Below are positions 8,965 through 37,615 of a stretch of 64,000 nucleotides of DNA, in pieces. The stretch lies in NCBI RefSeq assembly GCF_022045235.1, contig NW_027266272.1, positions 29,760,001 to 29,824,000 of the forward strand, read 5' to 3'. The translations under genes were made by a program, and so were the position numbers. The DNA is from Haliotis cracherodii. Its lineage: Eukaryota. Each line of letters opens with the position of its first letter. The first letter of the stretch is position 1. Below the pieces are notes generated by a model. It searched no databases. It was not told the origin of the DNA and worked only from the letters and a program-made list of their open reading frames with translations.

Positions 8965-9045
8965 TCCACACATGCGCAGTGTAATCGTTTCCTGAGGCGT
9001 CATGACAACGCTTGCCTCCTTCCTGTGTGTCAGCCATTTTGACAG
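8965..9045 (+). promoter_or_regulatory. Candidate TATA-less core promoter of orphan gene copy A
   Basis: cttcctgtgtgtcagccattttga (9019-9042) is identical at 23018-23041. It contains ETS (CTTCC) and YY1 (GCCATTTTG) motifs, with shared ggcgtcatgacaac and catgcg upstream. Confidence 0.6.
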
Positions 9046-9125
9046 ATTGCACTGGAGTATATTGCAAGTTTTGCGATCGTTTACGACTTTGAGAGTTTGT
9101 GAGAGCTGAGGAGGTGAAGAAAATC

Positions 9126-10765
9126 ATGAATCCAAGTACAGGAGGTATGTGATGAGTATGTTTTGATCTGTGATGGTGCTGTATATGATAAGGTATAGTG
9201 TTGCAAAACTGACTATGCCACTATCACATTTTGCCTGCCTGTAAATTCAGAGACAAAAGTGTTCTCGTTCATTGTTTTTACATACAGAAGTCATCATAGC
9301 ATATACTGCATATGCTTGATCTAGATCGGGATATTACTATCTAAATGCACGACCCTGTGTACTTGTAGCCTTCCCACATACTATAAAATTGCATTGTAAA
9401 TATGATACGACCATTCTACTACATTCTAGTCAGTTGTTCAGTTGTCAGAACATCAGTTTTCAAGCAGTACTAAAACAAAATGCATATGTATTTTATTATT
9501 GTTTCTTCATATGTTAATCATTACAGTAGCTGTTTCCCGCTTGCCCCCTGGGCTGCCTACAGTGGTGATGGGAGATGGGACCAGATGTCTGGTAGATCAC
9601 AACACTATCTGGATACCAGCTAGTAATCCTGTTAACCTCTCCCTGGGTCCTGGTAACCCACAGCCAAAACTCCTGCAGCCTCGAGTTCAGCCATCTGTGA
9701 CTGGTATCCCCCTGCCTCCTGCAGTCCAGCCACGACCTTGCAGTGGACGTAGGAAGATGATGCCAACCTGCAAGCTGCCTGTCAGCCTGCCCAGTTCAGA
9801 GCTAGACCTGCAGCTGATGAGACCAGAGGTATATTACGTTTTTGATCGTTTTTAAATGTAACTGGAAAAAGACATTATTCTCTTTCATATTGCAAAATGT
9901 GAAATGATACATTGACTGTATGACCCATCAGGCCTTCTCCTGTGCCCTGCCCCCACTTGACCTTCCCAGATCAGTACCCCAACTCCTGTCTGTAGCCCAT
10001 GTTGAAAGTCCAGCCATACCTTCAACAAGCAGCCCCAAACCCAATTCCAAGACCCCTATCCTCCCAAAGCAAAAACCTGAGCTCAAGCCCTGCAAACGCA
10101 AGCCCCACACTTTCAGACCAAAACCTCAGCCAAAGCCTCGCATTCCCAAGGAGAAAGTGAGCAAGCATCAGCCTGAGAGCAAGCCCTACTTTGTGCCTCA
10201 GCCTCTTGGAGCTCAGCACATCAAAACCCAGAACAAACCCCTTGGGAACCGTGTCACTAAGCCCTCTGGTAGTCATGGTATCGTTAAGACCTCATCTAAG
10301 CTTAGTTTTGGTAAACAGTTGTTGTCTGCTGAAAATGCTTACACAAAGCCAAAGTCTGTGTTGCCCAGTACAGGTTGCAAGACCTTGCCTGTCTCTATTA
10401 AGAATGTAAAGGATCAGGTTGTTTCAGCATCAGAGAGTGCTAAGTCAGGTGGTGTCACTGCTGTCACAGTAAGTGTAAATCCAGCCAAGACAATGGACAG
10501 AGCTGAGCCAAACTCTGATGAATATGATGTGGAATATCTGTATCTTACTAAACTCATTTTAAGGAAAAAGAGGAAACCCACTGCTGAGCCCAGCAAGGAG
10601 TCCCTGCCCTCACGCAAGAGGAAGTGCCCAGATGACAACAGCGAGGTGTCCCAAGCTGAGAAGCAGGCAAGACTGGAGGAGCCCCAGGACACTCTGGAGG
10701 ACCTGGAAGCTCTCCTGACTGAGTACAGCTCCAGTCTCTTATCTGGCACCAGGGACTTCTTCTAA
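9126..10765 (+). CDS. Orphan Pro/Lys-rich putative nuclear protein, copy A; exons 9126-9144, 9527-9828, 9932-10765 (384 aa)
   Basis: GT-AG introns with compatible phases (1, 0) and an uninterrupted spliced ORF. The same exon structure occurs in the paralog at 23131. Basic NLS-like clusters RKKRK and RKRK; acidic C-terminus. Confidence 0.8.
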
Positions 10766-11039
10766 ACACTGTAAGGGGCAGGGGACAGGTAGGTATAGAT
10801 AAGTGTATAGTGGTTAGGTTAATGTAAGTACATGGTGATCTTTCTCTAAGCTTTCCTTGTTCAAGGCTGTCAACCATCTGCTACCGGTTCTGTTTTATAT
10901 GATAAGAAACTTATAGGTCTACTGCCCAATGTCTACACTCTACTGAATATCGTGCTATATTCTGTGCCTTGACAATTTCTCTGTCTATGGTATTCTACCC
11001 AATTTATCTATATTCCTCTTATTCTTGTGAACCCCATAT

Positions 11040-14000
11040 TACTCTGTGCCATTTAGTACTACTCTACACTACTATGTACTGTCCTACTCTACCCTACTAT
11101 GTACTGTCCTACTCTACCTTACTCTGTGCTGTCCTACTCTACCCTACTCTGTACTGTCCTACTCTACCTTACTCTGTACTGTCCTACTCTACCCTACGTT
11201 TGTCTTAGTCTCCCCTACTCTGTACTGTCCTACTCTACCCTACTCTGTATTGTCCTACTGTACCCTACTCTGTACTGTCCTACTCTACCCGACTCTGTAC
11301 TGTCCTACTCTACCCTACGTTTGTCTTGGTCTCCCCTACTCTTATTCTTGCGAACCCCATCTTACTCTGTGCCATTTGGTACTACTCTACCGTGCTATAT
11401 ACTGTCCTACTCTACATCACTCTGTACTGTCCTACTCTACCCTACTCTGTACTGTCCTACTCTACCCTGGTCTGTACTGTCCTACTCTACCCTAGTCTGT
11501 ACTGTCCTACTCCCCCCTACTCTGTACTGCCCTACTCTACCAGCCCTGACTGACCTCCTCTACCCTCCTCTGTACTGTCCTACTCTACCCTATGTTTGTC
11601 GTAGTCTACCCTACTCCGTACTGACCTACTCTACCTTACTCTGTACTGTGCTACTCTACCCTACGTTCGTCTTAGTCTCCCCTACTCTGTACTGTCCTAC
11701 TCTACCCCCCTCTGTACTCTCCTACTCTACCCTCCTACTCCGTACTGTCCTACTCTGTACTGTCCTACTCTAACCTCCTACTCCGTAGTTCTACTCTACC
11801 CTACTCTGTACTGTCCTACTATACCCTCCTCTGTACTGTCCTACTCTACCTTACTCTGTACTGTCCTGCTCTACCCTCCTCTTCACTGCGCTACTCTACC
11901 CTCCTCTGTCCTTTCCTACTCAACCCTCCTCTCTATTGTCCTACTCTACCCTACTATGTACTGTCCTACTCTGACTTACTCTGTACTGTCCTACTTTACC
12001 CTACTCTGTACTGTCCTACTCAACCTTACTCTATACTGTCTTACTCTACCCTCCTCTGTACTGTCCTACTCAACACTCCTCTCTATTGTCCTACTCCGCC
12101 TTACTCTGTACTGTCCTACTCCGCCTTACTCTGTACTGTCCTACTTTACCCTACTCTGTACTGTCCTACTCCGTACTGTTCTACTCACTACTGTCCTACT
12201 CTATCCAACTCTGTACTGTTCTACTCAACCCTTCTCTGTACTGTCCTACTCTACCTTACTCTGTCCTTTCCTACTCTACCCTCCTCTGTACTGTCCTACT
12301 CAACCCTACTCTGTACTGTCCTACTCTACCTTACTCTGTCCTTTCCTACTCTACCCTCCTCTGTACTGTCCTACTCTACCCTAGTCTGTACTGTCCTACT
12401 CAACCCTACTCTGTACTGTCCTACTCAACCTTACTCTGTACTTTCCTACTCTACCCTCCTCTGTACTGTCCTACTCTGTCCTACTGTACCCTACTCTGTA
12501 CTGTCCTACTCTACCTTACTCTGTCCTTTCCTACTCTACCCTCCTCTGTACTGTCCTACTCTACCCTAGTTCGTACTGTCCTACTCTACCTTACTCTGTC
12601 CTTTCCTACTCTACCCTCCTCTGTACTGTCCTACTCAACCCTACTCTGTACTGTCCTACTCTACCTTACTCTGTCCTTTCCTACTCTACCCTCCTCTGTA
12701 CTGTCCTACTCTACCCTAGTCTGTACTGTCCTACTCAACCCTACTCTGTACTGTCCTACTCAACCTTACTCTGTACTTTCCTACTCTACACTCCTCTGTA
12801 CTGTCCTACTCTGTCCTACTGTACCCTACTCTGTACTGTCCTACTCTACCTTACTCTGTCCTTTCCTACTCTACCCTCCTCTGTACTGTCCTACTCTACC
12901 CTCCTCTGTACTGTCCTACTCTGTCCTACTGTACCCTACTCTGTACTGTCCTACTCTATCTTACTCTGTCCTTTCCTACTCTACCCTCCTCTGTAATAGT
13001 CTACTGTCCTACTCTACTCTACCCTACTCTGTACTGTCCTGCTCTACCCTTCTCAGTACTGTCCCACTTTACCCTACTCTGTACTGTCCCACTCTACCCT
13101 ACTCTGTACTGTCCTACTCTACCCTACTCTGTAGAAGTCTGTACTGTCCTAATATGCCCTACTCTGTACTGCCTTACTCTACCCTACTCTGTAGTAGTCT
13201 GTACTGTCCTAATATGCCCTACTCTGTACTGTCCTACTCTACCTTACTCTGTCCTTTCCTACTCTACCCTCCTCTGTAATAGTCTACTGTCCTACTCTAC
13301 TCTACCCTACACTGTACTGTCCTGCTCTACCCTTCTCAGTACTGTCCCACTTTACCCTACTCTGTACTGTCCTAATATGCCCTACTCTGTACTGCCTTAC
13401 TCTACCCTACTCTGTAGTAGTCTGTACTGTCCTAATATGCCCTACTCTGTACTGTCCTACTCTACCTTACTCTGTCCTTTCCTACTCTACCCTCCTCTGT
13501 AATAGTCTACTGTCCTACTCTACTCTACCCTACTCTGTACTGTCCTGCTCTACCCTTCTCAGTACTGTCCCACTTTACCCTACTCTGTACTGTCCTAATA
13601 TGCCCTACTCTGTACTGCCTTACTCTACCCTACTCTGTAGTAGTCTGTATTGTCCTTATATGCCCTACTCTGTACTGCCTTATTCTACCCTACTCTGTAG
13701 TACTCGGTACTGTCCTAATATGCCCTACTCTGTACTGCCTTACGCTACCCTACTCTGTAGTAGTCTGTACTGTCCTTATATGCCCTACTCTGTACTGCCT
13801 TACTTTATCCTACTCTGTAGTAGTCTGTATTGTCCTTATATGCCCTACTCTGTACTGCCTTATTCTACCCTACTCTGTAGTACTCGGTACTGTCCTAATA
13901 TGCCCTACTCTGTACTGCCTTACGCTACCCTACTCTGTAGTAGTCTGTACTGTCCTTATGTGCCCTACTCTGTACTGCCTTACTCTACCCTACTATGTAC

Positions 14001-14110
14001 TTATCTACTCTACCCTAATCGGTACTCTCCTTCTCTACCCTCTCTGTACTGTCCTACTCTAACCTACTCTGTACTGTCCTAATCTACTCTCTTTGTTATT
14101 GTCCTACTCT
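11040..14110. repeat. 25-bp pentamer-based satellite (TACTC TACCC TACTC TGTAC TGTCC), array 1
   Basis: Direct inspection. A higher-order 60/180-bp period is visible at ~13600-13980 (lines 13681 and 13861 are identical). Confidence 0.95.
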
Positions 14111-15080
14111 ACTCTTAATTGAATTTCCTTGAACTGAAACTTGTGATCATGTTTAATTATTCACACAGACATCTAGTAAAGAGAAATATATGCTAAGTCA
14201 CTGTACGCTTTTGTATTCACATCTGGAGTGGATAGGGACGGCTGTGAGGGGAGGTTGGAGGCCGTATATTTTGGATGTAACTGAAATACATGTTTAAGTA
14301 TTTTACAAGGATATATTTACGTTCTTTCCCAATAAAAATACCTCGGCGGTCTAAATAGCAGTTATGTTGTATTTTACTCAGAAAATGCCATGGAGTCAAT
14401 TAATGTACAGGGACAATTCTTTGCAAGATGTTGCAAAACATCTACACGCCTTATAAAGTCAGAGGGTGAGTGAGGTAACATTTTACATCGCATACGAAAT
14501 ATGTATTATTTTACCAGTATAATAAAAAGAGACTACATGTGGTGTGTCGGGACTGTGTCCATCGAGAGGAAACTGTACTCTTGTATTCGGGAATGTATGA
14601 TCAGAAATGTTTCAGCAAGTTCTTGTGTGGGTGTGTGAGGCAATGGACAATACAGCTGTACCATTCTTCAAAAGAGAAGACAAATGTCTACCATAATACA
14701 ACATTTGTATAAGGAAATTCAGGAGTGACTGACTGAGGAAATAGGCAACATTATTATAGATATCATTCTCCAAACAACCAAACATATATAGCGGTAAAGT
14801 ACCCGTATAACTTCACGTGAATCTCTTCGTGAAGCGACAGAAACGTAACACGTGTTCGTTAAGTACTCATGAATGAGTGATTGAGGTAATCAACATTATT
14901 GCAACTATATCATGGGGGTATGTAAGGTAATCCAGCCTGGACCAAACAAACTCATGGTTAGTGGAACGAGTAGATGATTCATAGTATACGAAGACACACA
15001 CTGATAAACACTGGCCATAAGCTGATACAATATGCATGTCACAGCTGGTCCTCCATCAATCGCTATTCTTACTCAGCACT
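14095..15080 (+). other. Conserved non-coding block downstream of gene copy A (candidate terminal 3'UTR exon / polyA region)
   Basis: Colinear with 36545-37615. AATAAA at 14331 corresponds to 36770. Confidence 0.6.
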
Positions 15081-15304
15081 CATGCTCGTCAACACATTCT
15101 AAAGAAGAACATGGGTAACTGGTGAACTATACATTGCCAGAGTCTACGAGTTAGTCTGTGGTCCGTCAGAATGTGCAACACAAAATGTCCATGACAGCTA
15201 TATGTTCGACTGATTATAATTTTCACAACGCCTCAAGGGCTATTACAGGGAATTACGAAGGCGCTACTCCATTATTACTTTGAGATTTTTGGTTTTTGGG
15301 GGGT

Positions 15305-15563
15305 TTGGTTTGTTGTTGAACACCACACTGAGCAATATTCCAGCTATATGACGGCGGTCTGTAAATACTTAAGTCTGGACCAGACAATCCAGTGATTTAC
15401 ATCATGAACATCGATCCACGCCATTGGGATCGATGACATGCATCAACCAAGTCAGCGAGCCTGACCACCCGATCCCGGTAGTCGCCTTTTACGACAAACA
15501 TCGTCGCTTTTTACGGCAAGCATGGGTTGCTGAAGACCTATTCTACCCCGGATCTTCACGGGT
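15305..15563 (-). mobile_element. SINE family 1, full length
   Basis: Complete head (..ggatcttcacggg) through to the tail. Confidence 0.9.
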
Positions 15564-15946
15564 ATATTGAGTAATGGTCAGCTGAATTTGGCACTTCAAT
15601 GTTATCTCTGTCCCCCAACTCACAGTTCCCTTTCCACCTCATAACCCCAAGTCCCCAATCTTCGCGGTACCCTTACCCCCGTGATCAGCTATAGTTCCTT
15701 TCCCCTCTCATACCCCGTCCCCACTGCCTTTACTTGTCCTCCAAATATCATCCCTTCCTCTCACATCCCCATTTTCCATCTTTCCCCCTACCGCTGCCTT
15801 CATCCTACTCCCATAGTTACTTCCTATTCTCATACCCCCATGTCCCCATGATTCTACCACAGTCGTAAATTACGTACGGTATGCCACACTGTCTCATGCC
15901 CACATATTGCCCTTGTTACACTACTGCCTAGAAGTTCATTCCCCTA

Positions 15947-16547: not shown

Positions 16548-17928
16548 TTACGGTACACGCTCATTGCGTTATGTTTGGACAGTGATCAGTCGTCAGGAAG
16601 TTATTATATTTAGATGCTTTTGTGGTGGGTAATCTTCCAGTCCGGTACGGACGGTGATAGTATGTAATAGAGAATTCTCTAATGTTCTAGTGCTGCTAGA
16701 CTGGTGAGGGCACTGTGTAGGACTTTCCAGTAGCTAGGTTGGTAGTAAATAAAGAGACAAGAGCGTGTTTACGCATCTCTCACACAGTTCATCACATTAA
16801 GACCAGTTTTCTTGTGAGGATCGCTCATGATCCCTAATTCCCTGACTAGCACACCACAGAAGTTTGACCACTGTTGCCGCTTGGTGAATATATGTTATTA
16901 TCACTGACTTTTGCTATCACCACTGTATTTTTGTATTTGATACTGGCCACTGCCATCATATCATACTTTGCCATTGAATATTGTATTACATGTGTATACC
17001 TTCGCCCTGCCACTACAGTTCTCTTCCCCTATCATAGCCCCATGTCCCCCCAATTCCCTTTGCCCCTACCTTCGTCCTGCGACTGTAGCTAACTTCCCCT
17101 CTCATCGCCCCATGTTTCCAATTCTCCTTGCACCTACCTTTGTCCTACCAAAACAGTTCTCTTCCCCTCTCATAGCCCCATGTCCCCCAATTCCCACTGT
17201 CCCTACCTTTGTCCTACCAATGAAGTTAACTTCCCCTCTCATCGCCCCATGGTTCCCAATTCCCCTTCCCTACCTTCGTCCTACCATTACAGTTCTCTTC
17301 CCCTCTCATAGCCCCATGTCCCCCAATTCCCATTGCCCCTACCTTCGCTCTACCATTACAGTTCTCTTCCCCTCTCATAGCCCCATGTCCCCCAATTCTC
17401 CTTGCCCCTACCTTCGCTCTACCATTACAGTTCTCTTCCCCTCTCATAGCCCCATGTCCCCCAATTCCCATTGCACCTACCTTCGCTCTACCATTACAGT
17501 TCTCTTCCCCTCTCATAGACCCATGTCCCCCAATTCTCCTTGCCCCTACCTTCATCCTACCTCTGTATTTAACTTCCCTTCTCATAGCCCTATGTCCCCC
17601 AATTCTCCTTGCCCCTACCTTCGCTCTACCATTACAGTTCTCTTCCCCTCTCATAGACCCATGTCCCCCAATTCTCCTTGCCCCTACCTTCATCCTACCT
17701 CTGTATTTAACTTCCCTTCTCATAGCCCTATGTCCCCCAATTCCCATTGCCCCTACCTTCGCTCTACCATTACAGTTCTCTTCCCCTCGCATAGCCCCAT
17801 GTCCCCCAATTCTCATTGCCCCTACCTTCGCTCTACCATTACAGTTCTCTTCCCCTCGCATAGCCCCATGTCCCCCAATTCCCATTGCCCCTACCTTCGC
17901 TCTACCATTACAGTTCTCTTCCCCTCTC

Positions 17929-20728: not shown

Positions 20729-21575
20729 ATAGCCCTATGTCCCCCAATTCTCCTTGCCCCTACCTTCATCCTACCTCTGTATTTAACTTCCCTTCTCATA
20801 GCCCTATGTCCTCCAATTCTCCTTGCCCCTACCTTCGCTCTACCATTATAGTTCCCTTCCCCTCTCATAGCCTCATATGCCCCAATTCCCGTTGCACCTA
20901 CCTTCAACCCCACCCCAACCACCCCTAAAATGTACTTGTCTCTCACACCACCTTGCATTTATCTCCGTCCTCAAGCATTACTACTTCCTCCCTCATCTAG
21001 TTCCCCTCCCCACACAACCCGTCATACCCCTACCACTACCTCAGTCTTCCTGCTATAGTCGTTCCCGTGGCCTCTTAAACTAAATGAAAATGTGTCGAAC
21101 CATAATATTCTTTGATTTGTTCATTGCAGTAATCTAAACAATTTAGGTCACCTTGAAATTGACAAAAAAAGCGTATTCTTCGATTGTGGTAATATTTTAA
21201 AAAACCAAAACGCCCAGAGAGCGTATGTTTTGGTATAGATACGATATGTTGCATTACAATGGCGTTACAAATTCAGATGTTGGCAATGAGATTAAGAATG
21301 GAGTTATTTTCTTCTTGAGACTATTAACATATCACAGTGAAACTTTGTGTTGACGATACTGACAGATTATTTGTATGATTTAGGCACCACCATCTGCACT
21401 CAACGATGTGTCCAAACTGTATGATTATTTGTCAAATAATGGATAAATATGCAAATGTGGTTACTCGGCAGAAACTACTTCTTTGCAACGCTCCGCACAT
21501 CGCTGTGGTGTTTACTTGCTTACAAACTATTGTATAACTTTCCCTGCATCATTAGAGAGCGATTTCCCGATGTGT

Positions 21576-22733: not shown

Positions 22734-22974
22734 CCTTGAAACTTTAGTAGTTTTATGATTCATTCAAACGCTAATAAAATCCTCATTCAAGACGGGTAAC
22801 TCTATTTACATAGCAAACTTTCAAACTAAAGTAGCTTCCCTTGAAATGACCTTCACTTCTCATAACGCATTTCTTCTCCTTATTAAATCTGAACAGGTGC
22901 CGTGTAATGGAGTGTTGATGCATATATTTCACAATGTGTAAGGCAAACGGAAGAGCAAGTTTTTCATAACGTCG

Positions 22975-23045
22975 ACGCATGCGTGGTTTCGCCTGAAGTG
23001 GCGTCATGACAACACCCCTTCCTGTGTGTCAGCCATTTTGAGAGA
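22975..23045 (+). promoter_or_regulatory. Candidate core promoter of orphan gene copy B
   Basis: Same 24-bp ETS/YY1 block as at 9019-9042; acgcatgcgt NRF1-like palindrome. Confidence 0.6.
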
Positions 23046-23130
23046 TATCACTGGAAGTGTTCTCAGTTTTATCGTGCAATTTTTTATGCAACTCGAAAAG
23101 TGTGTACGACTTGAAGAGGTGGAGAAAACT

Positions 23131-24794
23131 ATGAATGCTACTACGACAGGTAGGCCTATATGACATTTGCATTTTTACCAGCAATAAAGCATCATGTAAT
23201 AACTTTTAATGTGTTCACAATGCGCACCACAAAATTGGTAAAACGCTGGTGTTTCCATACACTAATTTCAATTTTCATATTCTGTACAGACCTTATATTG
23301 AAAAATACAACTTTAATATGTAATTTGTAACCTGAACGTTTTAGTAACGCAAGGTATAGAAACTAAACATGATACAGGACACGTTCCACTTAGTGAAAAT
23401 GAAAGTGTAGAATCCCCGAAGACACGCCTGATTTTCTTTTCAAAAGACTGAGTTTTAATGAATTGTTTATTATTAAAACGACAAGTCTCAATGAAAATCT
23501 TAATACTTATTTAAGCACTTCTAGTGTCTTCATTTAGTTAAAATAATGAATTCTCTATTATAGTGCCTGTTCCCCGCTTGCCCACCGGGCTGCCAACAGT
23601 GGTGATGGGAGATGGAACAAGATGTCTGGTAGATCACAACACTATCTGGTTACCAGCTGGTAATCCTGTGAACCTCTCCTTGGGTCCTGGTTACCCACAG
23701 CCAAGACTCCTGCAGCCTGGAGTTCAGCCATCTGTGACTGGTATCCCCCTGCCTCCTGCATTCCAGCAACCACCTTGCAGTAGACGTAGGGAGACGATGC
23801 CTGTCAGCCTGCCCAGTTCAGCGCTAGATCTTCAGCTGATGAGACCAGAGGTATAGTACGGTTTTGATCATTAAATAATGGAACTGAAAAAGCCTGCATG
23901 ATTATATTTGTTTATTGCAAAATATGAAAATGATACATTGACTGTATCACCCATCAGGCCTTCTCCTGTGCCCTGTCCCCACTTGACCTTCCCAGATCAG
24001 TACCACAACTCATGCCCACAGCCCATGTGAAAACTCCAGGCGTATCTACAGCAAGCAACTCCAAACCCAATTCCAAGACCCCTCTCCTACCAAAGCAAAA
24101 ACCTGAGCTCAAACCCTGCAAACGCAGGCCCCGCACTTTCAGACCAAAACCTCAGCCAAAGCATCGCATTCCCAAGGAGAAAGTGGGCAAGCATCAGCCT
24201 GAGAGCAAGCCCTACTTTGTGCCTCAGCCTCTTGGAGCTCGGAAAATGAAAGAACAGAGCAGAACCCGGGGGAATCGTATCACTAAGCCTTCGGGTGATA
24301 ATGGTATCATTAAGTCCTCATCTAAGCTTAGTTTTGCCGAACAGTTGTTGTCTGCTGATCGTGCTTACTTAAAGCCAAAGTCTGTCTTGCCCAGTAAAGG
24401 TTGCAAGACCTTGCCTGTCCCTGTTGATAATGTAAAGGATAAGGTTGTTTCAGCATCAGAGAGTGCTAAGTCAGGTGGTGTCACTGCTGTAACAGTAAGT
24501 GTAAATTCTGACAATGCAGTGGACAGAGCTGAGCCAAACTCTGATGATGAATATGATGTGGAATATCTGTATCTTACTAAACTCATTTTAAGGAAAAAGA
24601 GGAAACCCACTGCTGAGCCCAGCAAGGAGTCCCTGCCCTCACGCAAGAGGAAGTGCCCAGATGACAACAGCGAGGTGCCCCAAGCTGTGAAGCTGGCAAG
24701 ACTGGAGGAGCCCCAGGACACTCTGGAGGACCTGGAAGCTCTCCTGGCTGAGTACAGCTCCAGTCTCTCATGTGGCACCAGGGACTTCTTCTAA
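23131..24794 (+). CDS. Orphan Pro/Lys-rich putative nuclear protein, copy B; exons 23131-23149, 23564-23850, 23958-24794 (380 aa)
   Basis: Same 19-nt first coding exon and intron phases as copy A. Indels between copies are multiples of 3 and the ORF is intact. Confidence 0.8.
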
Positions 24795-27700
24795 ACACTG
24801 TAAGGTGCAGGGGACAGGTAGGTATAGATTAGTGTATCATGGTTAGGTTTATGTAAGTACATGGTGATCCTTCTCTTACCCTCATTCCTTCTTTGTTATT
24901 TTGACCATCTGCTACTGATTCTGTTTTATAAACTCTTCATTTTTGTTCTACTCTTCCCTACCCTGTACTGTCCTACTCTACCCTCTCTTGTACTCTTATA
25001 CTCCACTCTCCTCATTATTGCACTGCTCTTCCCTTCTCCGTACTGTTCTGCTCTACCCTCTTTATTATTCTACTCAATCCTCCTCTACTCTGTCCTACTC
25101 TATCCCACACTGTACTGTCCTACTTTACCCTACTTTGAACTGCCCTACTCTACTCTGTAATGTTCTACTGTACCCTCATCTTTGTTGTGCTCTATCCCAC
25201 TCTGTACTATCCAACTATACCGTTCTCTGTACTGTCCTACTCTACACTACTCTGCACTGTGCTAATCTGAACTATCCTACTCTACCCTCCTCTGTACTGT
25301 CCTACTCTACCCTACTCTGTACTTTCATACTCTAACCTATTCTGTACTGTACTGTCCTACTCTACCCTACTTTGTACTGTTCTACTCTACCCTACTCTGT
25401 ACTGTCCTACTCTATTCTACTCTGTACTGTCCTACTTTACCCTACTTTGAACTGTCCTACTCTACTCTATAATGTTCTATTCTACCCTCATTATTGTTGT
25501 TGTTCTCTATCCCCCTCTGTACTATCCAACTATACCATTCTCTCTACTGTCCTACTGTACCCTACTCTGTACTGTCCTACTCTACACTACTCTGCACTGT
25601 CCTACTCTCTACTGTTCTACTCTACCCTACTCTATACTGTCCTACTCTAGCCTACTCTGCACTGTCCTACTCTGTACTGTCCTACTCTACCCTATCCTGT
25701 ACTGTCTTACTCTACCGTACTCTGAACTGTCCTACTCTACGCTACTCTATACTGTCCTACTCTACCCTACTCTATACTGTCCTAATATACCCTACTCTGT
25801 ACTGCCCTTCTCTGTCCTACTCTGTACAGTCCTACTCTACCCTACCCTGTACAGTCCTACTCTACACTACTCTGCACTGTGCTAATCTGAACTGTCCTAC
25901 TCTGCCCTTCTCTGTACTGTCCTACTCTACCCTACTCTGTACTGCCCTACTCTACCCTACTCTGTAAAGTCCTACTCTACCCTACCCTGTACTGTCCTAC
26001 TCTGCACAGTGCTAATCTGTACTGTCCTACTCTAATCCCTACTCTGTACTACCCTACTCTGTACTGTCCTACTCTATCCTGCTTTACTCTACCCTACTCT
26101 GTACTGTCCTACTCTATCCTTCTCTGTACTGTCCTACTTTACCCTACTTTAAACTGTCCTACTCTACTCTGTAATGTTCTATTCTACCCTCATGTTTGTT
26201 GTTGTGCTCTATCCCCCTCTGTACTATCCAACTATACCATTCTCTGTACTGTCCTACAGTACCCTACTCTGTACCGGCCTACTCTACACTACTCTGCACT
26301 GTCCTACTCTGTACTGTCCTACCCTACCCTACTCTGTAACTGTCCTACTCTACCCTACTCTATACTGTCCTACTCTACCCTACTCTATACTGTCCTAATA
26401 TAACCTACTCTGTACAGTCCTACTCTACCCTATCCTGTACTGTCATACTCTACACTACTCTGCACTGTGCTAATCTTAGCTGTGCTACTCTACCCTCCTC
26501 TGTACTGCCCTACTCTACCCCACTATCTACTGGCCTACTCTACCCTACTCAGTACTGTCCTAACTTACCCAACTCTCAACTGTCCTACCTTACACTACTT
26601 TGCACTGTCCTACTCTGTACTGTCCTACTCTATCGTACTCTGTCCTCCTTTACTCTACCCAACTCTGTACTGTCCTACTCTACACTACTTTCCACTGTCC
26701 TACTCTGTACTGTCCTACTCTATTGTACTCTGTCCTACTTTACTCTACCCAACTCTGTACTGACCTACTCTACACTACTTTGCACTGTCCTACTCTACCC
26801 CACTTTCTACTGCCTACTCTACCCTACTCTGTACTGTCCTACTCTACCCTACTCTGTACTGCCATACTCTACCCCACTTTCTACTGGCCTACTCTACCCT
26901 ACTCTGTACTGGCCTACTCTACCCTACTCTGTACTGCCCTACTCTACTCAGCTCTACTCTCTACTGTTCTACTCTACTCTGTACCGTCCTAATCTACCCA
27001 ACTCTGTACTGTCCTACTCTACTCTACTCTTTACTGTTCTACTCTACTCTGTACTATCCTACCTTACACTACTTTGCACTGTCCTGCTCTGTACTGTCCT
27101 ACTCTATCATGCTCTGTCCTACTTTACTCTACCCAACTCTGTACTGTCCTACTCTACACTACTTTGCACTGTCCTACTCTGTACTGTCCTACTCTATTGT
27201 ACTCTGTCCTACTTTACTCTACCCATTCTGTACTGTCCTACTCTACCCTACTTTGTACTGTCCTACCCTACCCTACTCTGTACTGTCCTACTCTACCCTA
27301 TTCTGTACAGTCCTACTCTACACTAATCTGCACTGTCCCACTCTGTACTGTCTTACTCTACCCACCTCTGTCCTGCTTTACTCTACCCTACTCTGTACTG
27401 TCCTACTCTACCCTACTCTTTACTGTCCTACTCTACCCTACTCTTTACAGTCCTACTCTACCTTACTCTCTACTTTCCTGCTCTACACTACTTTCCACTG
27501 TCCTACACTCTACTGTCCTCCTCTGTACTGTCCTGCTCTATCCTACTATGTCCTGCTTTACTCTACCCTACTCTGCACTGTCCTACTCTACTCTACTCTG
27601 TACTGTCCTACTCTGTACTGTCCTAATCTACCTTACTCTGTACTGTCTTACTCTACCCTACTCCGTACTGCCCTACTCTACTCTACTCCGTACTGTCCTA

Positions 27701-30700
27701 CTCTGTACTGTCTTACGCTATCAACCTCTGTCCTGCTTTACTCTACCCTACTCTGTACTGTCCTACTCTACCCTACTCTGTACTGTCCTGCTCTTCACTA
27801 CTTTGCACTGTCCAACCTCTACTGTCCTACTCTGTACTGTCCTATTCTACCCATTCTGTCCTGCTTTACTCTACCCCACACTGTACTGTCCTACTGTATA
27901 CTGTCTTTCTCTACACTTCTCTGCACTGTCCTACTCCGTACTGTCCTACTCTACACTTCTCTGCACTGTCCTACTCTGTTCTGTCTTACTCTATCCACCT
28001 CTGTCCTGCTTTACTCTACCCTAATGTGTACTGTCCTACTCTACCCTACTCAGTACTGTCCTACTCTACCCTACTCTTTACTATCCTAATCTACCCTACT
28101 CTCTACTGTTCTGCTCTACACTACTTTGCACTGTCCTACTCTCTACTGTCCTCCTCTGTACTGTCCTACTCTATCCACCTCTGCCCTGCTTTACTTTATC
28201 TTACTCTGTACTGTCCTACTCTACCCAACTCTGTACTGTCCTACTCTACTCTACTCTTTTCTGTTCTACTCTACTCTGTACTATCCTACCTTACACTACT
28301 TTGCACTGTCCTACTCTGTACTGTCCTACTCTACCATACTCTGTCCTACTTTACTCTACCCAACTCTGTACTGTCCTACTCTATTGTACTCTGTCCTACT
28401 TTACTCTACCCATTCTGTACTGTACTACTCTACCCTACTCTGTACTGTCCTACTCTACCCTACTCTGTACTGTCCTACTCTACACTAATCTGCACTGTCC
28501 TACTCTGTACTGTCCTACTTTGTACTGTCCTGCTCTATCCAACTCTGTCCTGCTTTACTCTACCCTACTGTGTACCATCCTACTCTACCCTACTCTGTAC
28601 TGTCCTACTCTACCCTGCTCTTTACTGTCCTACTCTACCGTACTCTCTACTGTCCTGCTCTACACTACTTTGCACTGTCCTACACTCTACTGTACTTCTC
28701 TGTACTCTCCTACTCTATCCAACTCTGTCCTGCTTTACTCTACCCTACTCGGTACTGTCCTAATCTTTCCCACTTTCTACTGTCCTACTCTACCCTCCTC
28801 TATACTGCCCTACTCTACTCCACTTTCTACTGGCCTACTCTACCCTACGCTTTACTGTCCTAATCTACCCAACTCTGTACTACCCTACTCTACTCTACTG
28901 CTCTACTCTACTCTACTGTCCTACTCTCTACTGTTCTACTCTACTCTGTACTGTCCTACCTTACACTACTTTGCACTGGCCTACTCTGTACTGTCCTACT
29001 CTATCGTACTCTGATCTACTTAACTCTACCCAACTCTGTACTATCCTACTCTACACTACTTTACACTGTCCTACTCTGTACTGTCCTACTCTATTGTACT
29101 CTGTCTTACTTTACTCTACCCATTCTGTACTGTCCTATTCTACCCTTCTCTGTACTGTCTTACTCTACCCTACTCTATACTGTCCTAATCTACCCTACTC
29201 TGTACTGCCCCACTCAACCCTACATGTACTTTGCACAGTCCTTCTATGTACTGTCCTACTCTGTGCTGTCCCACTCAACCCTAATCTGTACTGCCCTGCT
29301 CTTCACTACTTTGCACTGTCCAACCTCTACTGTCCTACTCTGTACTGTCCTATTCTAATCCAATATGTCCTGCTTTACTCTACTCTAATCTGTACTGCCC
29401 TACTCTACTCTACTCTGTACTGTTCAACTCTATCGTACTTTGTCCTGCTTTACTCTACCCTATTCTGTACTGTCCTATTCTACCCTACTCTGTACTGTCC
29501 TTCTCTACACTACTCTGCACTGTCCTACTCTGTACTGGCCTACTCTACACTACTCTGCACTGTCCTACTCCACTCTACTCTGTACTGTCCTAATCTACCC
29601 TACTCTGTACTGTCTTACTCTACCTTACTCTGTACTGTAGTACTCTACCCTACTCTATACTGTCCTTCTCTACACTACTCTGCACTGTCCTACTCTGTAC
29701 TGGCCTACTCTACACTACTCTGCACTGTCCTACTCCACTCTACTCTGTACTGTCCTAATCTACCCTACTCTGTACTGTCTTACTCTACCTTACTCTGTAC
29801 TGTAGTACTCTACCCTACTCTGTACTGTCCTACTCCACCCTGCTCTGTACTGTCCTACTCTACCCTACTCTGCACTGTCCTACTCTACCCTACTGTGTAC
29901 TGTCCTACTCTACCCTACTCTGCACTGTCCTACTCTACCCTACTCTGTACTGTCCTACTCCACTCTACTTTGTACTGTCCTACTCTACCCTAGTCTGTAC
30001 TGTCCTACTCCACTCTACTCTGCACTGTCCTACTCCACTCTACTCTGTACTGTCCTACTCTACCCTACTCTGTACTGTCCTACTCCACTCTACTCTGTAC
30101 TGTCCTACTCTACCCTACTCTGTACTGTCCTACTCCACTCTACTCTGTACTGCCCTACTCTACCCTACTCTGTACTGTCCTACTCTACCCTACTCTGCAC
30201 TGTCCTACTCTAACCTACTCTGTACTGTCTTACTCTACCCTTCTCTGTACTGTCCTACTCTACCCTACTCTGTACTGTCCTGCTCTACCCTACTCTGTAC
30301 TGCCCTACTCTACCCTACCCTGTACAGTCCTACTCTACACTATTCTGCACTGTGCTAATCTGAACTGTCTTACTCTACCCTTCTCTGTAATGTCCTACTC
30401 TACCCTACTCTGTACTGTCCTGCTCTACCCTACTCTGTACTGCCCTACTCTACCCTACTCTGTAAAGTCCTACTCTACCCTACCCTGTACTGTCCTACTC
30501 TGCACATTGCTAATCTGAACTGTCCTATTCTACCCTCCTCTGTACTGTCCTACTCTACACTACTCTGTACTTTCCTACTCTACCCTACTCTGTACTGCCC
30601 TAGTCTACCATCCTCTGTACTTTCCTTCTCTAACCTATTCTGTACTGTCCTACTCTACCCTACTCTGTACTACCCTGCTCTACCCTCCTCTGTACTTACC

Positions 30701-31599
30701 TTCTCTAACCTATTCTGTACTGTCCTACTCTACCCTACTCTGTACTACCCTACTCTACTTTACTCTACCCTACTCTGTACTGTCCTACTCTATCCTTCTC
30801 TCTACTGTCCTACTTTACCCTATTTTAAACTGTCCTACTCTACTCTGTAATGTTCTATTATACCCTCATGTTTGTTGTTGTGCTCTATCCCCCTCTGTAC
30901 TATCCAACTATACCATTCTCTGTACTGTCCTACAGTACCCTACTCTTTACTGGCCTACTCTGTACTGTCCTACTCTATCGTACTCTGATCTACTTTACTC
31001 TACCCAACTCTTTACTATCCTACTCTACACTACTTTACACTGTCCTACTCTGTACTGTCCTACTCTATTGTACTCTGTCCTACTTTACTCTACCCATTCT
31101 GTACTGTCCTAATCTACCCTTCTCTGTACTGTCTTACTCTACCCTACTCTATACTGTCCTAATCTACCCTACTCTGTACTGCCCCACTCAACCCTACTTT
31201 GCACAGTCCTTCTATGTACTGTCCTACTCTGTACTGTCTTACTCTATCCTACTTTACTCTACCCTACTCTGTACTGTCCCACTCAACCCTAATCTGTACT
31301 GCCCTGCTCTTCACTACTTTGCACTGTCCAACCTCTACTGTCCTACTCTGTACTGTCCTATTCTAATCTAATCTGTCCTGCTTTACTCTACTCTAATCTG
31401 TACTGCCCTACTCTACTCTACTCTGTACTGTCCTACTCTACTCTAATCTGTACTGCCGTACTCTACTCTACTCTGTACTGCCGTACTCTACCATACTCTG
31501 TACTGTCCTACTCTACCCTTCCCTGTATTGCCCTACTCTACCCCACTTTCTACTGGCCTACTCTACCGTACTCTGTAATGTCCTAATCTACCCTACCCT

Positions 31600-34500
31600 G
31601 CCTGCAACCTCCGTGTATCGCGGTACTTGTCATGTACGCTGAACGGAACAAAATGCACTCACTAACCTTTATGATTATTTGTGTTCTCTGTATCATACGC
31701 CATTTATTTTATCTAAATATGCACATTTTACTGATAAAAGTTCATTATTTCCATTCGTAGCGCCGAGTAAAAGCCAGGCCTCGCGCTCGGTTTGACAAGG
31801 GAGAGAACTCCATCGTATCGCGGTAAAGGGAAAAGTTGTGTATGGAGGCCCAAGTCAGACAAAAATGTTTACCTGCCACAAAGTATGATGATGCCAGACT
31901 TCGTGATTCATCCAGACAAGTGCAAAGACAGCACACAGGAAGAAAATGCATAAATAGTTCATTAGTCCCGAAATTTTTCAAAATCTAGAACAATGGAGTA
32001 ATAGGTTAACAGTTAAATAGTCACCAAGGAGACAGTTTAAACACAGTGGGGGCACTGGAATTCACCATGACGCCTTACAAATGTGGTATTTGTACAAAAT
32101 GACAGATGTGTCCAGTGTTGACATTTGTCACACTGAGCCCACTTGACAATCACCAGATAAGGGCATGACCTTAGTCCTGGTGGGGTGTGCTTGCCACAAA
32201 CACAGCAGTTCTCTGAATCATCCTCAGACACATCAGGAGATGAACCTTGTTCTGAGTCGGAACTGTTAACCCAAAATGAAGATGGACCTGGCTGAGGACT
32301 TGTAGGTTTGGAATGCTTGACACAGGCAGCACGTTTTGTCGAAGTAGTAGCAGATCTCTTCAAATGTGTACTCTTTGCTGGAATGTTGGTTTGATTCTGT
32401 AGCTTTTTTGTGCTTTTTGAGGACTGCATAATTTCAACATTTTTTTGCTTCAGAAGATTTCCAGTCAGAAACGGTGGCACAAATTTTTTCTTAGGTTTAC
32501 AGAAGACTTTTGTGATCCTCCGCTCTTGAAGAAACTGGCTTGTACTGGAAGCTGAAGGAACCTGAACTGGTGGTGTAACATCTGAACGGCTACCTGGGGT
32601 TTCATGCGTGGATTCTAAAGGTGGAGCATCCAGGGGTGCTTCATTTTCCTGATTTCCTTTGTCTGAGTGAGGATATATAGTTGCAGGTGCTACGGACAGA
32701 TCCTCAATAGTCTTGTTGGAAAAAGGATAAATCCCAGATTTCCAGAAAGCTGACGCCAAATTATCTGGAGACATTGCCCTCAAATATGGTTTGGCAGTGA
32801 GCTTGGCAATCTCGTATTAGGTGATTTTCACACCTGGATTCCGTTGAAGATACAACTGACATTCCCTGCTGTACATAGATTTAAAGGGCCCAAACACTGC
32901 AACATCCAGAGGCTGGGTGATATGACTGGTATGTGGTGGCAGGACAAACAAAATCACGTTGTGCTTCTTGGCCCAGTCAACTAGAGTTAAAGACACATGT
33001 GATCTATGGCCATCAAAGAGAACTAATGTTTTCGGTGACATCGGATCTGTGCTTATCCCTGCATGCTTCACAAAGTGTTTTGTGAGATAATTCTGAAATA
33101 TCTTTGCATTAGACCATCCACTGTCTGACATTTCTCCAGAAGATCCAGGTGGCGCTCCATCCAGGAACTGGTCATTCCACCTCTTGCCAGGGAAAACAAA
33201 GTATGGAGGAATGTGGTTACCAATGGCATTACCACCACCGATAATTGTAACTGTGGAAGATCTTGGTGATGTTACTGCTTGTGGTTGGGAAGTGGAGTCA
33301 CAGACGATCTTAGGAGGGGCATGCTCAGTACTGATCCCAGTCTCATCCATGTTGTAGATCCTTTCTGGATTATCTCGCAATTCATTAAAAGTCAAAATGG
33401 TGGCAAGCTCCTTAAAGTAGGAACGCAGTGCTTCGCGGGAGGCATATTGTGCTCTCAGCATGGATAGTTTCTGGGGTTTGGCAAGTTTAACTTCGGGCCA
33501 TCGCCTTAGAAACCCATAAAACTAGTTGTCACTAAGAGGTCTATCACTCTTAGTTTTTCTGCCACATGTCACTGCAAAATCGGCTGCCAGGTATTGCACA
33601 TTGAGCTTTGTGTAGCCATATCCTATGCTGGACATGTACTTTATGTGAGTGACTAACTGTTGCTCCTCTTTGTCAGACAAAAGCGTCTCTCCACCGGGCT
33701 TGGCATGGACAGGAACATTACCCCTTGTTCTGTCTCGAAGAGTTGACTCTGGAATTGTATACAAACGAGATGCACCATATACTGACATACCATCGCGAGT
33801 GGCATCATGGTCAAGTGCACGCTGCAAATTGGCAGCATCATATTGGCATCTAATTTTAACTGTCTTAGGCTGCTGAAAAGTTAGCTGCCTCCTTACTTTA
33901 ACAGTCTTGCTATCCTGAAAAGAGAAAAGGTAAGTAGAATTTAGTCTGTGCAATAAATAATAGGTATTACATGCATTCTTACCATTTTACCCCCCCAAAA
34001 TTAATTTAAAAAAAACACAAACAACAAGTATGAGTAAAATATTGTAAGATTTTTATGAAAAAAGGATCAACAGTATTTGTCAAAAAAATTGAAAAAATGT
34101 GTAAAAATATTGTTTTAAAAAACTTTTAAATATATACATAAAAGGCACTACAGAAAACTATAAATACACATTTTTTCGAATTTACCACTCCTTTTATGAC
34201 ACCATTATGTATTCAACATATTTGGCTCGAAGTCAGGAACGTACTGGTAAATATGGCATTATGGCCCTTATTATGTACCATACATTTCTGACAACTTAGC
34301 GGAAACAAATGTGTGGACTACGTCACTTCTGCTACCTTATTTGTCAACATGAATATGCAGACGACCTTGTTCAGGTCGACCGAGAAAGTTTACTTGAGAA
34401 AAAGCGGGTTATATCGAAGTCAATTGATAGATAGGGGTAAGGCACTATTTCAAAACATGCCAGAACTAAGTATCAATCTGTCTTTAAATGATTACTTACC

Positions 34501-34666
34501 AGTAGACGGAACATTCTGCAGAAATTGCATTTGTTTACGAAGCGAAGACTTTCTGGTTGCTGATTTGCATATGTAAACAGCCGCTAGGAGGCGTGTCCCG
34601 CGTGAACTACCGGAAATCACAAATGCCGCGATACGATGAATGCCGCGGTACCATGGGGTCCGAGTA
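31600..34666 (-). mobile_element. Full-length pogo-superfamily DNA transposon
   Basis: Both ends are defined by comparison with 7694-8710 and by the interrupted satellite; TA follows the right end. Confidence 0.92.
32037..34259 (-). pseudogene. pogo-type transposase (HTH_psq/CENP-B-like HTH, DD35D, C-terminal PHD finger); predicted exons 34259-34245 and 33914-32037 (~630 aa) with two in-frame stops
   Basis: ORFs 33522-33953, 32817-33461 and 32037-32783 share one frame, broken only by TAG (33522) and TAA (32817). Catalytic motifs NMDETG, FDGHRSH, QPLD with 35 aa between D2 and D3; CCVC...CDKCQHWTH...C...CPHC. Phase-0 intron gtacgt..ttttcag. Confidence 0.9.
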
Positions 34667-36544
34667 TACTGCCCTTATCTACCAACTCTGTATTGTCCTA
34701 CTCTACTCTCTACTGTCCTATTCTACTCTGTACTGTCCTACTCTATCGTACTCTGTCCTGCTTTACTCTACCCTTCTCTGTACTGCCCTACTCTACTCTA
34801 CTCTGTACTGTCCTACTCTACTCTGTACTGTCCTACTCTATCGTACTATGTCCTAGTTTACTCTACCCAACTCTGTACTGTCCTACTCTATCCACCTCTG
34901 TCCTGCTTTACTCTACCCTACTCTGTACTGTCCTACTCTACCCTACTCTGTACTGTCATACTCTACCCTACTCTGTACTGTCCTACTCTACCCTACTCTG
35001 TACTGTCCTACTCTACCCTACTCTTTACTGCCCTACTCTACCCTTTTCTGTACTGTCCTACTCTACACTACTCTGCACTCTCCTACTCTGTACTATCCTA
35101 CTCTACACTACTCTGTACTGTCCTACTCTGTACTGTCTTACCCTATCAACCTCTGTCCTGCTTTACTCTACCCTACTCTGTACCGTCCCACTCAACCCTA
35201 CTCTGTACTGTCCTGCTCTACACTACTTTGCACTGTCCTACTCTCTACTGTCCTACTCTGTCCTGCTTTACTCTACTCTACTCTGTACTGTCCTTCTGTA
35301 CCCTACTCTGTACTGTCCCATTGCACACTACTCTGCACTGTCCTACTCTACTCTACTCTGTACTGTCCTAATCTACCCTACTCTGTACTGCCCTACTCTA
35401 CTCTACACTATCCTACTCTATTGTACTCTCTCCTGCTTTCCTCTACCCTTCTCTGTGCTGTCCTAATCTACCTTACTCTGTACTGTCTTACTCTACCCTA
35501 CTCTATACTGTCCTAATCTACCCTACTCTGTACTGCCCTACTCTACTCTAATCTGTACTGCCCATCTCTACTCTACTCTGTACTGTCCTAATCTCTACTG
35601 TCCTACACTGTACTGTCTGACTCTATGCACCTCTGTCCTGCTTTACTCTACCTTACTCTCTACTGTCCTACTCTACCCTACTCTGTACTGTCCTACTCTA
35701 CCCTACTCTTTACTGTCCTACTCTACCCTACTCTGTACTGTCCTACTCTCTACTGTCCTACACTGTACTGTCTTACTCTATCCACCTGTCCTGCTTTACT
35801 CTAACTTACTCTGTACTGTCCTACTCTACCCTACTCTTTACTGTCCATGTCTACCCTACTCTGTACTGTCCTACTCTTCACTACTCTGCACTGTCCTACT
35901 CTGTACTGTCTTACTCTATCAACCTGTCCTGCTTTACTCTACCCTAATCTGTACTGTCCCACTCAACCCTACTCTGTACTGTCCTACTCTGTACTGTCCT
36001 ACCCTTCAAATCTATCCTTTGTACTGCCCTACTTTACCGTATGCACTTTCCTTATCTGCACTGTCCACTACTCTATATATTTTCCAAGACTATCAAGCTC
36101 TTTAATGTCCACATTAAATACTTTACTGTAACACATCATGTCCTGTCATGATCTACACTTCTCAGTAATGCCCTTTTCTACTATGTACTGTCCTGCTGTA
36201 CCCTACTATGTATCGTCCAACTCTTCCCTCTATTATTCTACTCTATCCTCCTTCATACTGTTGTACTGTTCCCTCTACTCTATCCTCCGCTGTGCTGTCC
36301 GAATTTGCGCCCCTATTTATTGCTGTATCTGCACTGTCCACTACACTCTTTATTTTCCTAGACTAGCGCCCCCTACATTACATACTTTACCTTCCCATCA
36401 TATCCCATTCTAATCTATATTTCTCTATAATGCCCTCCACTACTATGCTACTATGTAGTATTGTACTATTCTACTGTCCGAGTCCGTCCTACTCTGTATT
36501 AATCTACTCTCTTTTATATTGTGCTACGCTTTCCTCCACTGTAC

Positions 36545-37615
36545 TGTCCTACTCGACTTGTATTTGAATTTTCCTTGAAATAAATTTAGTGAGAATGTTA
36601 AATTGAATAAAGAAAAATATATGTTGAGGAAATATGTCACTGTGCGCTTTTGTAATCAAACCTGGGGTGGATAGGAACGGCTGTGAGGGGAGGTTGGAGG
36701 CCGTACATTTTGGATGTAACAGAAGTACATGTATTTGTACATATTTTTAATTTGTTTAAGTTCTTTCTTAATAAAATATCTCTTGGCAGTCTAAAAGTTA
36801 CTGTTGTATTTTAACGAATAAAGTCAACCGCGGAGCTGGTTAATGTGGAGGAACAATTGAGTGCAAAAATGTTGCAAAACATCTACACACTACTTGATGC
36901 CTATGGCAGTACTGTCAAATCATTATCTGAGGGTGAATGAGTAAACATTTTACATCACATTGGCACTATATATTATTGCAACAAATGTAGTAATGAGAGA
37001 CCACATATGGGTTGTCCATCGGGAGGAAACTATGTTATATGAGTGAGGCTGTACCATTTTCTATTCTCCAAGATAAATGTGAAACATAATGCAACACACT
37101 GGTTAGGAAATGCATGAGTAAGTGACAGAAGAAGTTGACAACGTATATCTAGGTATAGTACCTGTGTAGCTTCACATGCATCTCCAGGGTATACTAAAGG
37201 AATGTTCTGACCTGGGCCCTTTATGTGAAAATTTCAAATATACCAGAGGGAGGCCCATACAAGCACAATGTTAAAATGGCCCATTGTAATAAAATGTGGG
37301 CCTTTTTTCATATTTAGGGGCTAAATGAACAAGGCACCACCCCAGAATTATGCCTGTATCTCTGAGTGAAGCAGTGGAAACGTGTAACACATGTTTGTTA
37401 ACACACTCATGAGTGAGTGATTGAGGTAATCGGCATTGTTGCAACTTTACCATGGCGGCGTGTCAGGTAATCCAGCCTATACAAGGCAAACCAGTGGTTA
37501 GTGGGACAAGATGATTCATAGTAAACCATTTTACGGTTAGTCAATGATGAACACTGGCAATAAGCTGATACAACACGTCACAGCTGGTCCTCCATTTAGA
37601 GCTATTCATACGCAG
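36545..37615 (+). other. Conserved non-coding block downstream of gene copy B
   Basis: Colinear with 14095-15080. Confidence 0.6.
37185..37356. mobile_element. 172-bp MITE
   Basis: Absent from the paralogous site at ~14820. Termini caggg.ata / tatgcctg; 6-bp TSD catctc/tatctc. Confidence 0.7.

What the first reader, a model, noticed from the sequence alone, without database searches (positions are those of the whole stretch)
8965..37615. Tandemly duplicated cassette: promoter + orphan nuclear protein gene + its own satellite + conserved tail
Two units (~8965-15080 and ~22975-37615) share the same order: ETS/YY1 promoter block, 3-exon CDS, 25-bp satellite (3 kb vs ~8.5 kb), ~1 kb conserved tail. 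Intron 1 could not be aligned by eye, yet exon phases, the 19-nt first coding exon and the ORFs are preserved, so both genes look selected. I recognise no domain. The protein has a compact conserved N-terminal segment (RLPxGLPTVVMGDGTRCLVDHNTIW), a basic disordered middle, NLS-like clusters and an acidic LxxLL-containing tail. A lineage-specific chromatin/germline gene family physically tied to a satellite is a candidate undescribed system; the function is pure inference.
Basis: partly seen in the sequence, partly recalled or inferred. Interest (0 to 1): 0.7.

Follow-up and report, generated by a model that had tools for sequence, protein, structure and literature searches.

The report
Abalone gene arrays with private satellites
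This abalone genome carries 29 copies of a spliced gene with no relative outside abalones in the databases searched, nearly all with a repeat tract behind the stop codon; its long protein likely acts as a disordered nuclear adaptor, a splice switch gives a short form lacking the predicted nuclear signal, and the repeats likely travel with the gene rather than being its target.

Summary
Both units are intact three-exon genes (384 and 380 aa); gene A equals a RefSeq Haliotis cracherodii protein misnamed 'titin-like'. The genome holds 29 copies in five clusters on three contigs; 23 keep the long frame. Relatives occur only in Haliotis. RNA contigs show exon 1-2 splicing and a second acceptor giving a 114-aa form without the C-terminal motifs. 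Selection keeps the long frame (1 nonsense change against about 15 expected) and the last 82 residues (omega 0.31); the middle drifts. Exons are homogenised while intron 1 is near random, so A and B are old lineages, not a fresh duplicate. The 25-bp satellite lies between stop codon and poly(A) signal and occurs only at these loci; a second, CT-rich satellite closes every cluster on the sense strand. One contig splices across 46 kb of it into a chondroitin-synthase gene. No evidence ties the protein to chromatin or to the satellite. Verdict: a real, undescribed ampliconic orphan family, like gene-bearing macrosatellites, with an unusual two-satellite layout and splice switch; function inferred. 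The scan had not noted this family on other DNA.

The parts
7694..8712 (.). Internally deleted copy (MITE-like) of the pogo-like transposon, just upstream of unit A; passenger
   Evidence: Matches both ends of 31601-34666 at 80-85%
8948..9040 (+). Promoter motif block A (ETS-, NRF1-, RFX-, YY1-like words; factor names recalled)
   Evidence: Block found in 30 of 30 unit starts; CpG o/e 0.95 against 0.21 in the CDS
9126..9144 (+). Gene A coding exon 1 (19 nt)
   Evidence: exon 1-2 joints in RNA contigs of runs X3 and X6
9527..9828 (+). Gene A exon 2: predicted three-strand beta-meander of WW size, then Pro-rich linker; shared by both isoforms
   Evidence: pLDDT 76-82 over the first 30 residues
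9932..10788 (+). Gene A exon 3, long form (stop 10763-10765; donor after 10788): basic disordered middle, invariant helix, two basic clusters, acidic LxxLL helix
   Evidence: protein identical to P0001 / XP_071102220.1
10564..10587 (+). Alternative acceptor inside exon 3; seven codons in another frame then stop, giving the 114-aa short form
   Evidence: GT..AG joint skipping 735-750 nt in runs X1, X2, X6; AG kept in 29 of 29 copies; RefSeq P0019, P0020 end the same way
11059..14112 (+). 25-bp minisatellite A, in the 3' UTR or last intron
14235..14336 (+). G-rich 27-nt block (99% conserved core) and AATAAA at 14331: likely 3'-end element of gene A
14118..15080 (+). Conserved tail A
   Evidence: 70-76% to tail B
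22945..23040 (+). Promoter motif block B (second, commoner promoter lineage)
23131..24817 (+). Gene B: exons 23131-23149, 23564-23850, 23958-24794 (stop), alternative acceptor 24593, donor after 24817
24944..36555 (+). 25-bp minisatellite B (6.7 + 1.9 kb), interrupted by the transposon
31601..34668 (-). Pogo/Tigger-like DNA transposon (HTH_psq + DDE_1), frame broken by two stops; passenger
36560..37615 (+). Conserved tail B with G-rich block (36674) and AATAAA (36770)
38006..44441 (+).
   Evidence: Related arrays follow every cluster on the sense strand

Best explanation
The two units are members of a 29-copy, abalone-restricted, spliced gene family whose long product likely works as a disordered nuclear adaptor through short motifs, and whose satellites likely ride inside and behind the transcription unit instead of being bound by the protein. 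Shown: copy number, exon layout, the second acceptor, selection on the long frame and on the last 82 residues, and the position of the repeats between stop codon and poly(A) signal. Inferred: the N-terminal beta-meander, the invariant helix DEYDVEYLYLTKLIL and the acidic LxxLL helix are partner-binding sites joined by a length-kept, freely drifting linker; the two basic clusters import it into the nucleus; the second acceptor lowers output or makes a cytoplasmic N-module-only form; arrays grow by unequal exchange helped by the repeats, and gene conversion keeps the exons alike while introns diverge.
For: 29 of 29 candidates carry promoter, exon 2 and exon 3; 23 of 29 keep the long frame, 25 of 29 the short. 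Long-only segment: 1 nonsense change against about 15 expected, p 5e-6; 9 of 11 indels in frame, p 0.0014, against 25 of 85 in intron 1. Omega 0.31 for aa 303-384 (p 1e-5), about 0 for aa 303-320 (p 6e-5), 0.94 for aa 108-303. The helix core, a basic cluster and LxxLL are in 39 of 39 long proteins from four species (set includes redundant paralogues). Whole model pLDDT 43 with only short helices and strands. G-block after the repeat in 27 of 29 copies, AATAAA 70-96 nt behind it in 26 of 27. Repeat period is 25 on C9 but 50-55 on C21 and C56 while the proteins stay 88-90% alike in DNA. Fourfold sites 0.84-0.92 identical between lineages while intron 1 is 0.61-0.85, shuffles 0.59-0.68.
Against: No partner, location or tissue is shown; NLS and LxxLL labels are recalled short motifs and LxxLL appears in 31% of shuffles. 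The long-form joint (9828 to 9932) is not among the listed RNA joints; both lists were partly cut and several contigs keep intron 2; it rests on RefSeq models and conservation. Exon 2 as a whole shows omega 1.13 and the N-module 0.67 (p 0.08), so constraint there is weak within this species. Both satellites are private to the family and the cluster-end satellite is always on the sense strand, which a pure passenger model does not explain.
Confidence: 0.55

Rival explanations
1. The long form is a lineage-specific eIF4E-binding translation regulator: the invariant helix reads YDVEYLYLTK, an eIF4E-binding-like word, and the splice switch removes it.
For: YxxxxL-hydrophobic-xx-K/R pattern in 39 of 39 long proteins, in the most constrained block, predicted helical; the extended pattern occurs in 2.4% of shuffles. 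The canonical motif is YxxxxL-phi and helical (PMC7139794, passages).
Against: The strict core (phi = L, M, F) is not met, phi is Tyr; the pattern was chosen after seeing the sequence; the same paper says about 15% of yeast proteins carry the motif; the motif is flanked by basic clusters that look nuclear.
Confidence: 0.12
2. One reading: a chromatin protein that binds or organises its own satellite.
For: Both satellites occur only at family loci (100 of 104 listed 25-mer hits, all at clusters or the CDS-less unit; 84 of 84 CT-rich 28-mer hits); basic middle (24 K+R against 4 D+E in aa 151-260).
Against: No DNA-binding fold; the basic middle drifts at omega about 1; repeat unit differs between clusters; no large target arrays elsewhere; the G-rich tail pairs with the satellites no better than shuffles.
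Confidence: 0.08
3. A selfish two-product family (wtf- or Dox-like) in which long and short forms act as a pair and the satellites spread the unit.
For: Many copies in dispersed clusters, repeat-flanked, two isoforms kept in most copies, two copies keeping only the short frame (L020, L026), a CDS-less derivative, one 30-codon window at omega 2.2 (p 0.017 uncorrected, 1 of 12 windows). Dox and wtf spread through repeats (PMC12941216, passages).
Against: No germline or transmission data; family present in four species with invariant motifs; housekeeping-type promoter and CpG-depleted gene body (reading recalled); tandem arrays are common in abalone genomes (PMC12627906, abstract).
Confidence: 0.06
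4. An ordinary single-function gene swept up by segmental duplication; copy number, satellites and the short isoform carry no function.
For: Abalone chromosomes with extensive segmental duplication are described (PMC12627906, abstract); 6 of 29 copies are broken; transposon and SINE insertions lie in the repeats.
Against: Second acceptor kept in 29 of 29 copies and used in three studies; G-block core 99% conserved; frame kept across most copies.
Confidence: 0.19

Closest known systems
RefSeq Haliotis proteins XP_071102220.1 ('titin-like'), XP_048243711.1, XP_048257501.1, XP_046367833.2 (114 aa), XP_046568270.1, XP_067650534.1, XP_067663615.1
   Same: Same family; gene A equals XP_071102220.1; long and short forms are both annotated, on different loci.
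   Different: Names come from low-complexity likeness and differ copy to copy; the records do not describe one family, the splice switch or the satellites.
Gene-bearing macrosatellites (CT47, TAF11-like, D4Z4/DUX4, RS447/USP17; PMC5687341, passages)
   Same: Head-to-tail multi-kb units each with a promoter and a lineage-restricted ORF, internal repeats and transposon pieces.
   Different: Units here vary in length (7-14 kb), are 88-98% alike, sit in five clusters, have two isoforms and end in a private satellite; testis expression and heterochromatin untested.
Drosophila Dox-like family with 359-bp satellite and fission yeast wtf (PMC12941216, passages)
   Same: Lineage-restricted multicopy genes next to repeats; wtf also makes two products.
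   Different: Dox copies inserted into pre-existing dispersed satellite islands; here the repeats exist only with the genes. No drive, protamine domain or suppressor hairpin shown.
WW domain (PF00397), NEDD4/ITCH type
   Same: Three-strand meander of like size; gene A shares LPxG and GxGxRxxVDHNT with an abalone WW (L094); WW entries recur among the Foldseek rows.
   Different: First Trp and the aromatic pair are missing, last strand is three residues short; E >= 1.2, HMM p about 0.05, hhalign probability 1.6%.
eIF4E-binding proteins (4E-BP, Eap1, p20; PMC7139794, passages)
   Same: Disordered, lineage-restricted, one invariant helical Tyr-x4-Leu word.
   Different: Hydrophobic position is Tyr; acidic lead-in; no binding data.

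Membership tests
Gene-bearing macrosatellite / ampliconic array | Head-to-tail multi-kb units each with a complete gene | tested here: met
Gene-bearing macrosatellite / ampliconic array | Concerted evolution within arrays | tested here: met
   CDS identity 0.93-0.98 within four of the five clusters (0.91 for the window pair) against 0.88-0.92 between
Gene-bearing macrosatellite / ampliconic array | Germline-restricted expression and copy-number polymorphism | not testable with these tools
   Run tissues are coded; one assembly only
WW domain | Three-stranded antiparallel sheet of about 30 residues | tested here: inconclusive
   Three strands predicted at pLDDT about 80; Foldseek WW rows E >= 1.2
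WW domain | Two signature Trp and central aromatic pair | tested here: not met
   Only one Trp; Cys-Leu in place of the aromatic pair; no Pfam match at E 10
eIF4E-binding protein | YxxxxL-phi motif, helical | tested here: inconclusive
   Met with phi = Tyr in 39 of 39; strict L/M/F not met
eIF4E-binding protein | Direct binding to eIF4E | not testable with these tools
   Needs a pull-down
Meiotic driver (Dox, wtf) | Biased transmission | not testable with these tools
   No cross or gamete data
Meiotic driver (Dox, wtf) | Insertion into pre-existing dispersed repeat islands | tested here: not met
   Exact repeat words occur only at family loci; diverged islands elsewhere would be missed
CtBP-binding repressor | Conserved PxDLS-type motif | tested here: inconclusive
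   27 of 39 proteins; absent in the H. asinina proteins; 21% of shuffles match (pattern recalled)
Transposon-borne cassette | Terminal repeats or target duplications at unit ends | tested here: inconclusive
   Upstream likeness fades near 260 nt before the YY1-like box with no shared end seen; no dedicated end search
Titin | Ig / FN3 domain arrays | tested here: not met
   No Pfam family for P0001 at E 10

The most novel reading that the evidence does not exclude
A selfish or dosage-conflict gene family in a mollusc: one promoter makes a long nuclear product and a short N-module product by a splice switch written into the protein's own invariant helix, and the family builds and spreads with two private, sense-strand satellites that close every cluster - an animal counterpart of wtf/Dox that brings its own satellites.
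Probability: 0.07. Interest if true: 0.9.

Novelty: new variant of a known kind. Interest (0 to 1): 0.5.

Why it matters
It turns a set of misnamed RefSeq entries into one genus-wide family with defined motifs, a conserved splice switch and testable predictions. It is a clear natural case of satellites arising inside a gene's 3' end and spreading only with that gene, and of exon-limited homogenisation that makes pairwise dN/dS misleading. If the family proves gonad-biased or distorts transmission it would give molluscs a drive-like system; if the invariant helix binds eIF4E it would be a lineage-specific translation regulator.

Tried and rejected
Complex prediction of abalone eIF4E (P0027, 36-222) with residues 296-384 gave 'no answer', score 0.00, alignments unused: no evidence either way. 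Pfam, PDB sequence, Foldseek, VIA-align and ESM Atlas searches found no family (Atlas best 0.79, VIA best Z 2.3; WW not listed by VIA, which excludes nothing). Profile search of 1.84 billion representatives gave 5 of 5 hits in the family (4 named Haliotis, 1 unnamed). Rfam on 7000-40000: 2 sub-threshold matches, ignored. No RNA holder was listed as RNA; the same-label run X11 gave no cover of the coding exons, which is not evidence; contig depth was not used to rank parts. G-rich tail pairing with either satellite: within shuffle range. Upstream ATG in the promoter block as a longer start: out of frame in 29 of 29. Idea that the array sits in intron 1 of the chondroitin-synthase gene, protocadherin-style: weakened because a CpG-rich promoter-like stretch with a donor lies at C9:29224400-29224733, after the satellite, and no common downstream gene follows the other clusters (output partly cut). 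Positive selection: 1 of 12 windows at p 0.017, not significant after correction. Print: searches (listings only) showed no paper on this family; six LOC ids had 0 hits; supplements of abalone expression papers were not seen and may list these genes.
Full report
Observation. Self-comparison with repeats masked shows A and B alike over promoter (70%), 9520-10899 (88%) and two tail blocks (70%, 76%). Spliced models give 384 and 380 aa with one terminal stop each. The 25-bp arrays are at 11059-14112 and 24944-36555, the second split by a pogo-like transposon with HTH_psq and DDE_1 pieces. The description is correct.

What it is. Exon 3 of A matches P0001 at 100%, a 384-aa RefSeq protein of Haliotis cracherodii on a contig of the same length as the window's. 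All 10 hits of that search and all 4 of the exon-2 search are Haliotis (cracherodii, rufescens, rubra, asinina); a profile over 1.84 billion representatives gave 5 hits, all family members. The genome holds 29 copies: 7 + 2 on C9, 8 + 6 on C21, 6 on C56, found alike with exon 2 and with the exon-3 end. A 30th unit on C21 joins promoter straight to satellite and tail, without CDS.

Transcription. Contigs of runs X3 and X6 join exon 1 to exon 2. Runs X1, X2 and X6, three studies, join the exon-2 donor to an acceptor inside exon 3 with GT..AG ends. That gives 114 aa ending EEKEETHC, as in RefSeq P0019 and P0020. The acceptor is kept in 29 of 29 copies, the short frame in 25, the long in 23. These runs are not of the window's own label and are only guessed to be RNA; the spliced joints argue for RNA. 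The long-form joint was not listed.

Selection. A versus B gives dN/dS 1.03. On the 23 intact copies omega is 1.13 for exon 2, 0.94 for aa 108-303, 0.31 for aa 303-384 and near 0 for aa 303-320. Over all 29 copies the long-only segment has 1 nonsense change against about 15 expected, and 9 of 11 indels keep the frame. So the long form is made, its linker is kept in length and frame, and its end in sequence. Silent sites are 0.84-0.92 identical between lineages while intron 1 is often no better than shuffled; A shares promoter type with the first C9 copy and the CDS-less unit, B with the rest. Gene conversion confined to exons is the likely cause (inference), so A and B are old lineages.

Protein. 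The full model is low-confidence with strands at 18-35 and helices at 307-320 and 362-377. The N-module alone folds as three strands at pLDDT about 80. It resembles WW domains only weakly and lacks their signature residues. The invariant helix reads like an eIF4E-binding word with Tyr at the hydrophobic place; such words are common (PMC7139794, passages). NLS, LxxLL, CtBP and promoter factor names are recalled, not from a call.

Satellites. An exact 25-mer has 104 hits in 1.18 Gb; the 100 listed are all behind C9 copies or in the CDS-less unit. Behind C21 and C56 copies the repeat is a related 50-55-mer. In 27 of 29 copies it is followed by a G-rich block found only in the family, and in 26 of those 27 by AATAAA, so it lies inside the gene's 3' end; a donor 23 nt behind the stop is kept in all copies. 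A second CT-rich satellite follows every cluster on the sense strand, 46 kb long behind the seven-copy array and at both ends of an inverted C21 cluster; an exact 28-mer of it has 84 of 84 hits at three of these places. The last copy of the seven lacks its own repeat and tail. One contig of run X7 leaves the post-stop donor and continues with a sequence that matches once in the genome, behind an AG at C9:29231652, in a gene whose later exon is a chondroitin synthase (CHGN, E 4e-100). This is read-through across the satellite; it rests on one contig, and that gene seems to have its own promoter.

Comparison. The closest kind is the gene-bearing macrosatellite (PMC5687341, passages). Dox and wtf share the repeat link (PMC12941216, passages), but here the repeats exist only with the genes. 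Abalones are rich in segmental duplications (PMC12627906, abstract and outline), and earlier scan notes list other tandem arrays in this genome; none matched this protein.

Verdict. A real, undescribed abalone gene family with a conserved splice switch and two private satellites. Structure is well supported; function is inferred. Interest 0.5.

Noticed in passing
window 31601-34668; 7694-8712; G000:C21:4328215-4329231: Pogo-like transposon broken only by two in-frame stops, and a 1-kb deleted form of it upstream of A and inside the repeat of a C21 copy: three insertions at family loci.
   Followed up: partly
G000:C21:3652059-3658859 (L072): Promoter joined directly to a 6.5-kb 25-bp array and tail with the whole CDS deleted; a possible satellite lncRNA.
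   Followed up: partly
G000:C21:4636670-4715988: Two copies on minus and four on plus face away from each other 1.5 kb apart, with CT-rich satellite at both outer ends, up to the contig end.
   Followed up: partly
G000:C9:29231652-29241250 (L116, L117): Chondroitin synthase (CHPF-like) gene that receives a read-through splice from the family.
   Followed up: partly
window 16997-17929, 20728-20914: 69-bp CT-rich repeat between units, also in spacers of the seven-copy C9 array.
   Followed up: partly
window 18530-20561: Fragmented LINE reverse transcriptase (RVT_1) between A and B.
   Followed up: no
window 51134-52402: Single-exon LRR_8 protein with a likely signal peptide downstream of the cluster.
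   Followed up: no
window 4016-5050 and 6425-7459: 1-kb inverted repeat at 98% identity with 312-bp internal repeats; likely a young foldback element.
   Followed up: no
window 53760-56165; 59317-59857: 33-bp tandem array (73 copies, 86%) and a 90/99-bp array.
   Followed up: no
window 14997-15078: Tail segment with GATA- and E-box-like words (recalled) that recurs, sometimes in several copies, behind most units.
   Followed up: no
G000:C9:29079078-29081267 (L066/L030): 729-codon open frame 7 kb upstream of the seven-copy array, basic acidic low-complexity; no Pfam match for its first 307 codons.
   Followed up: partly
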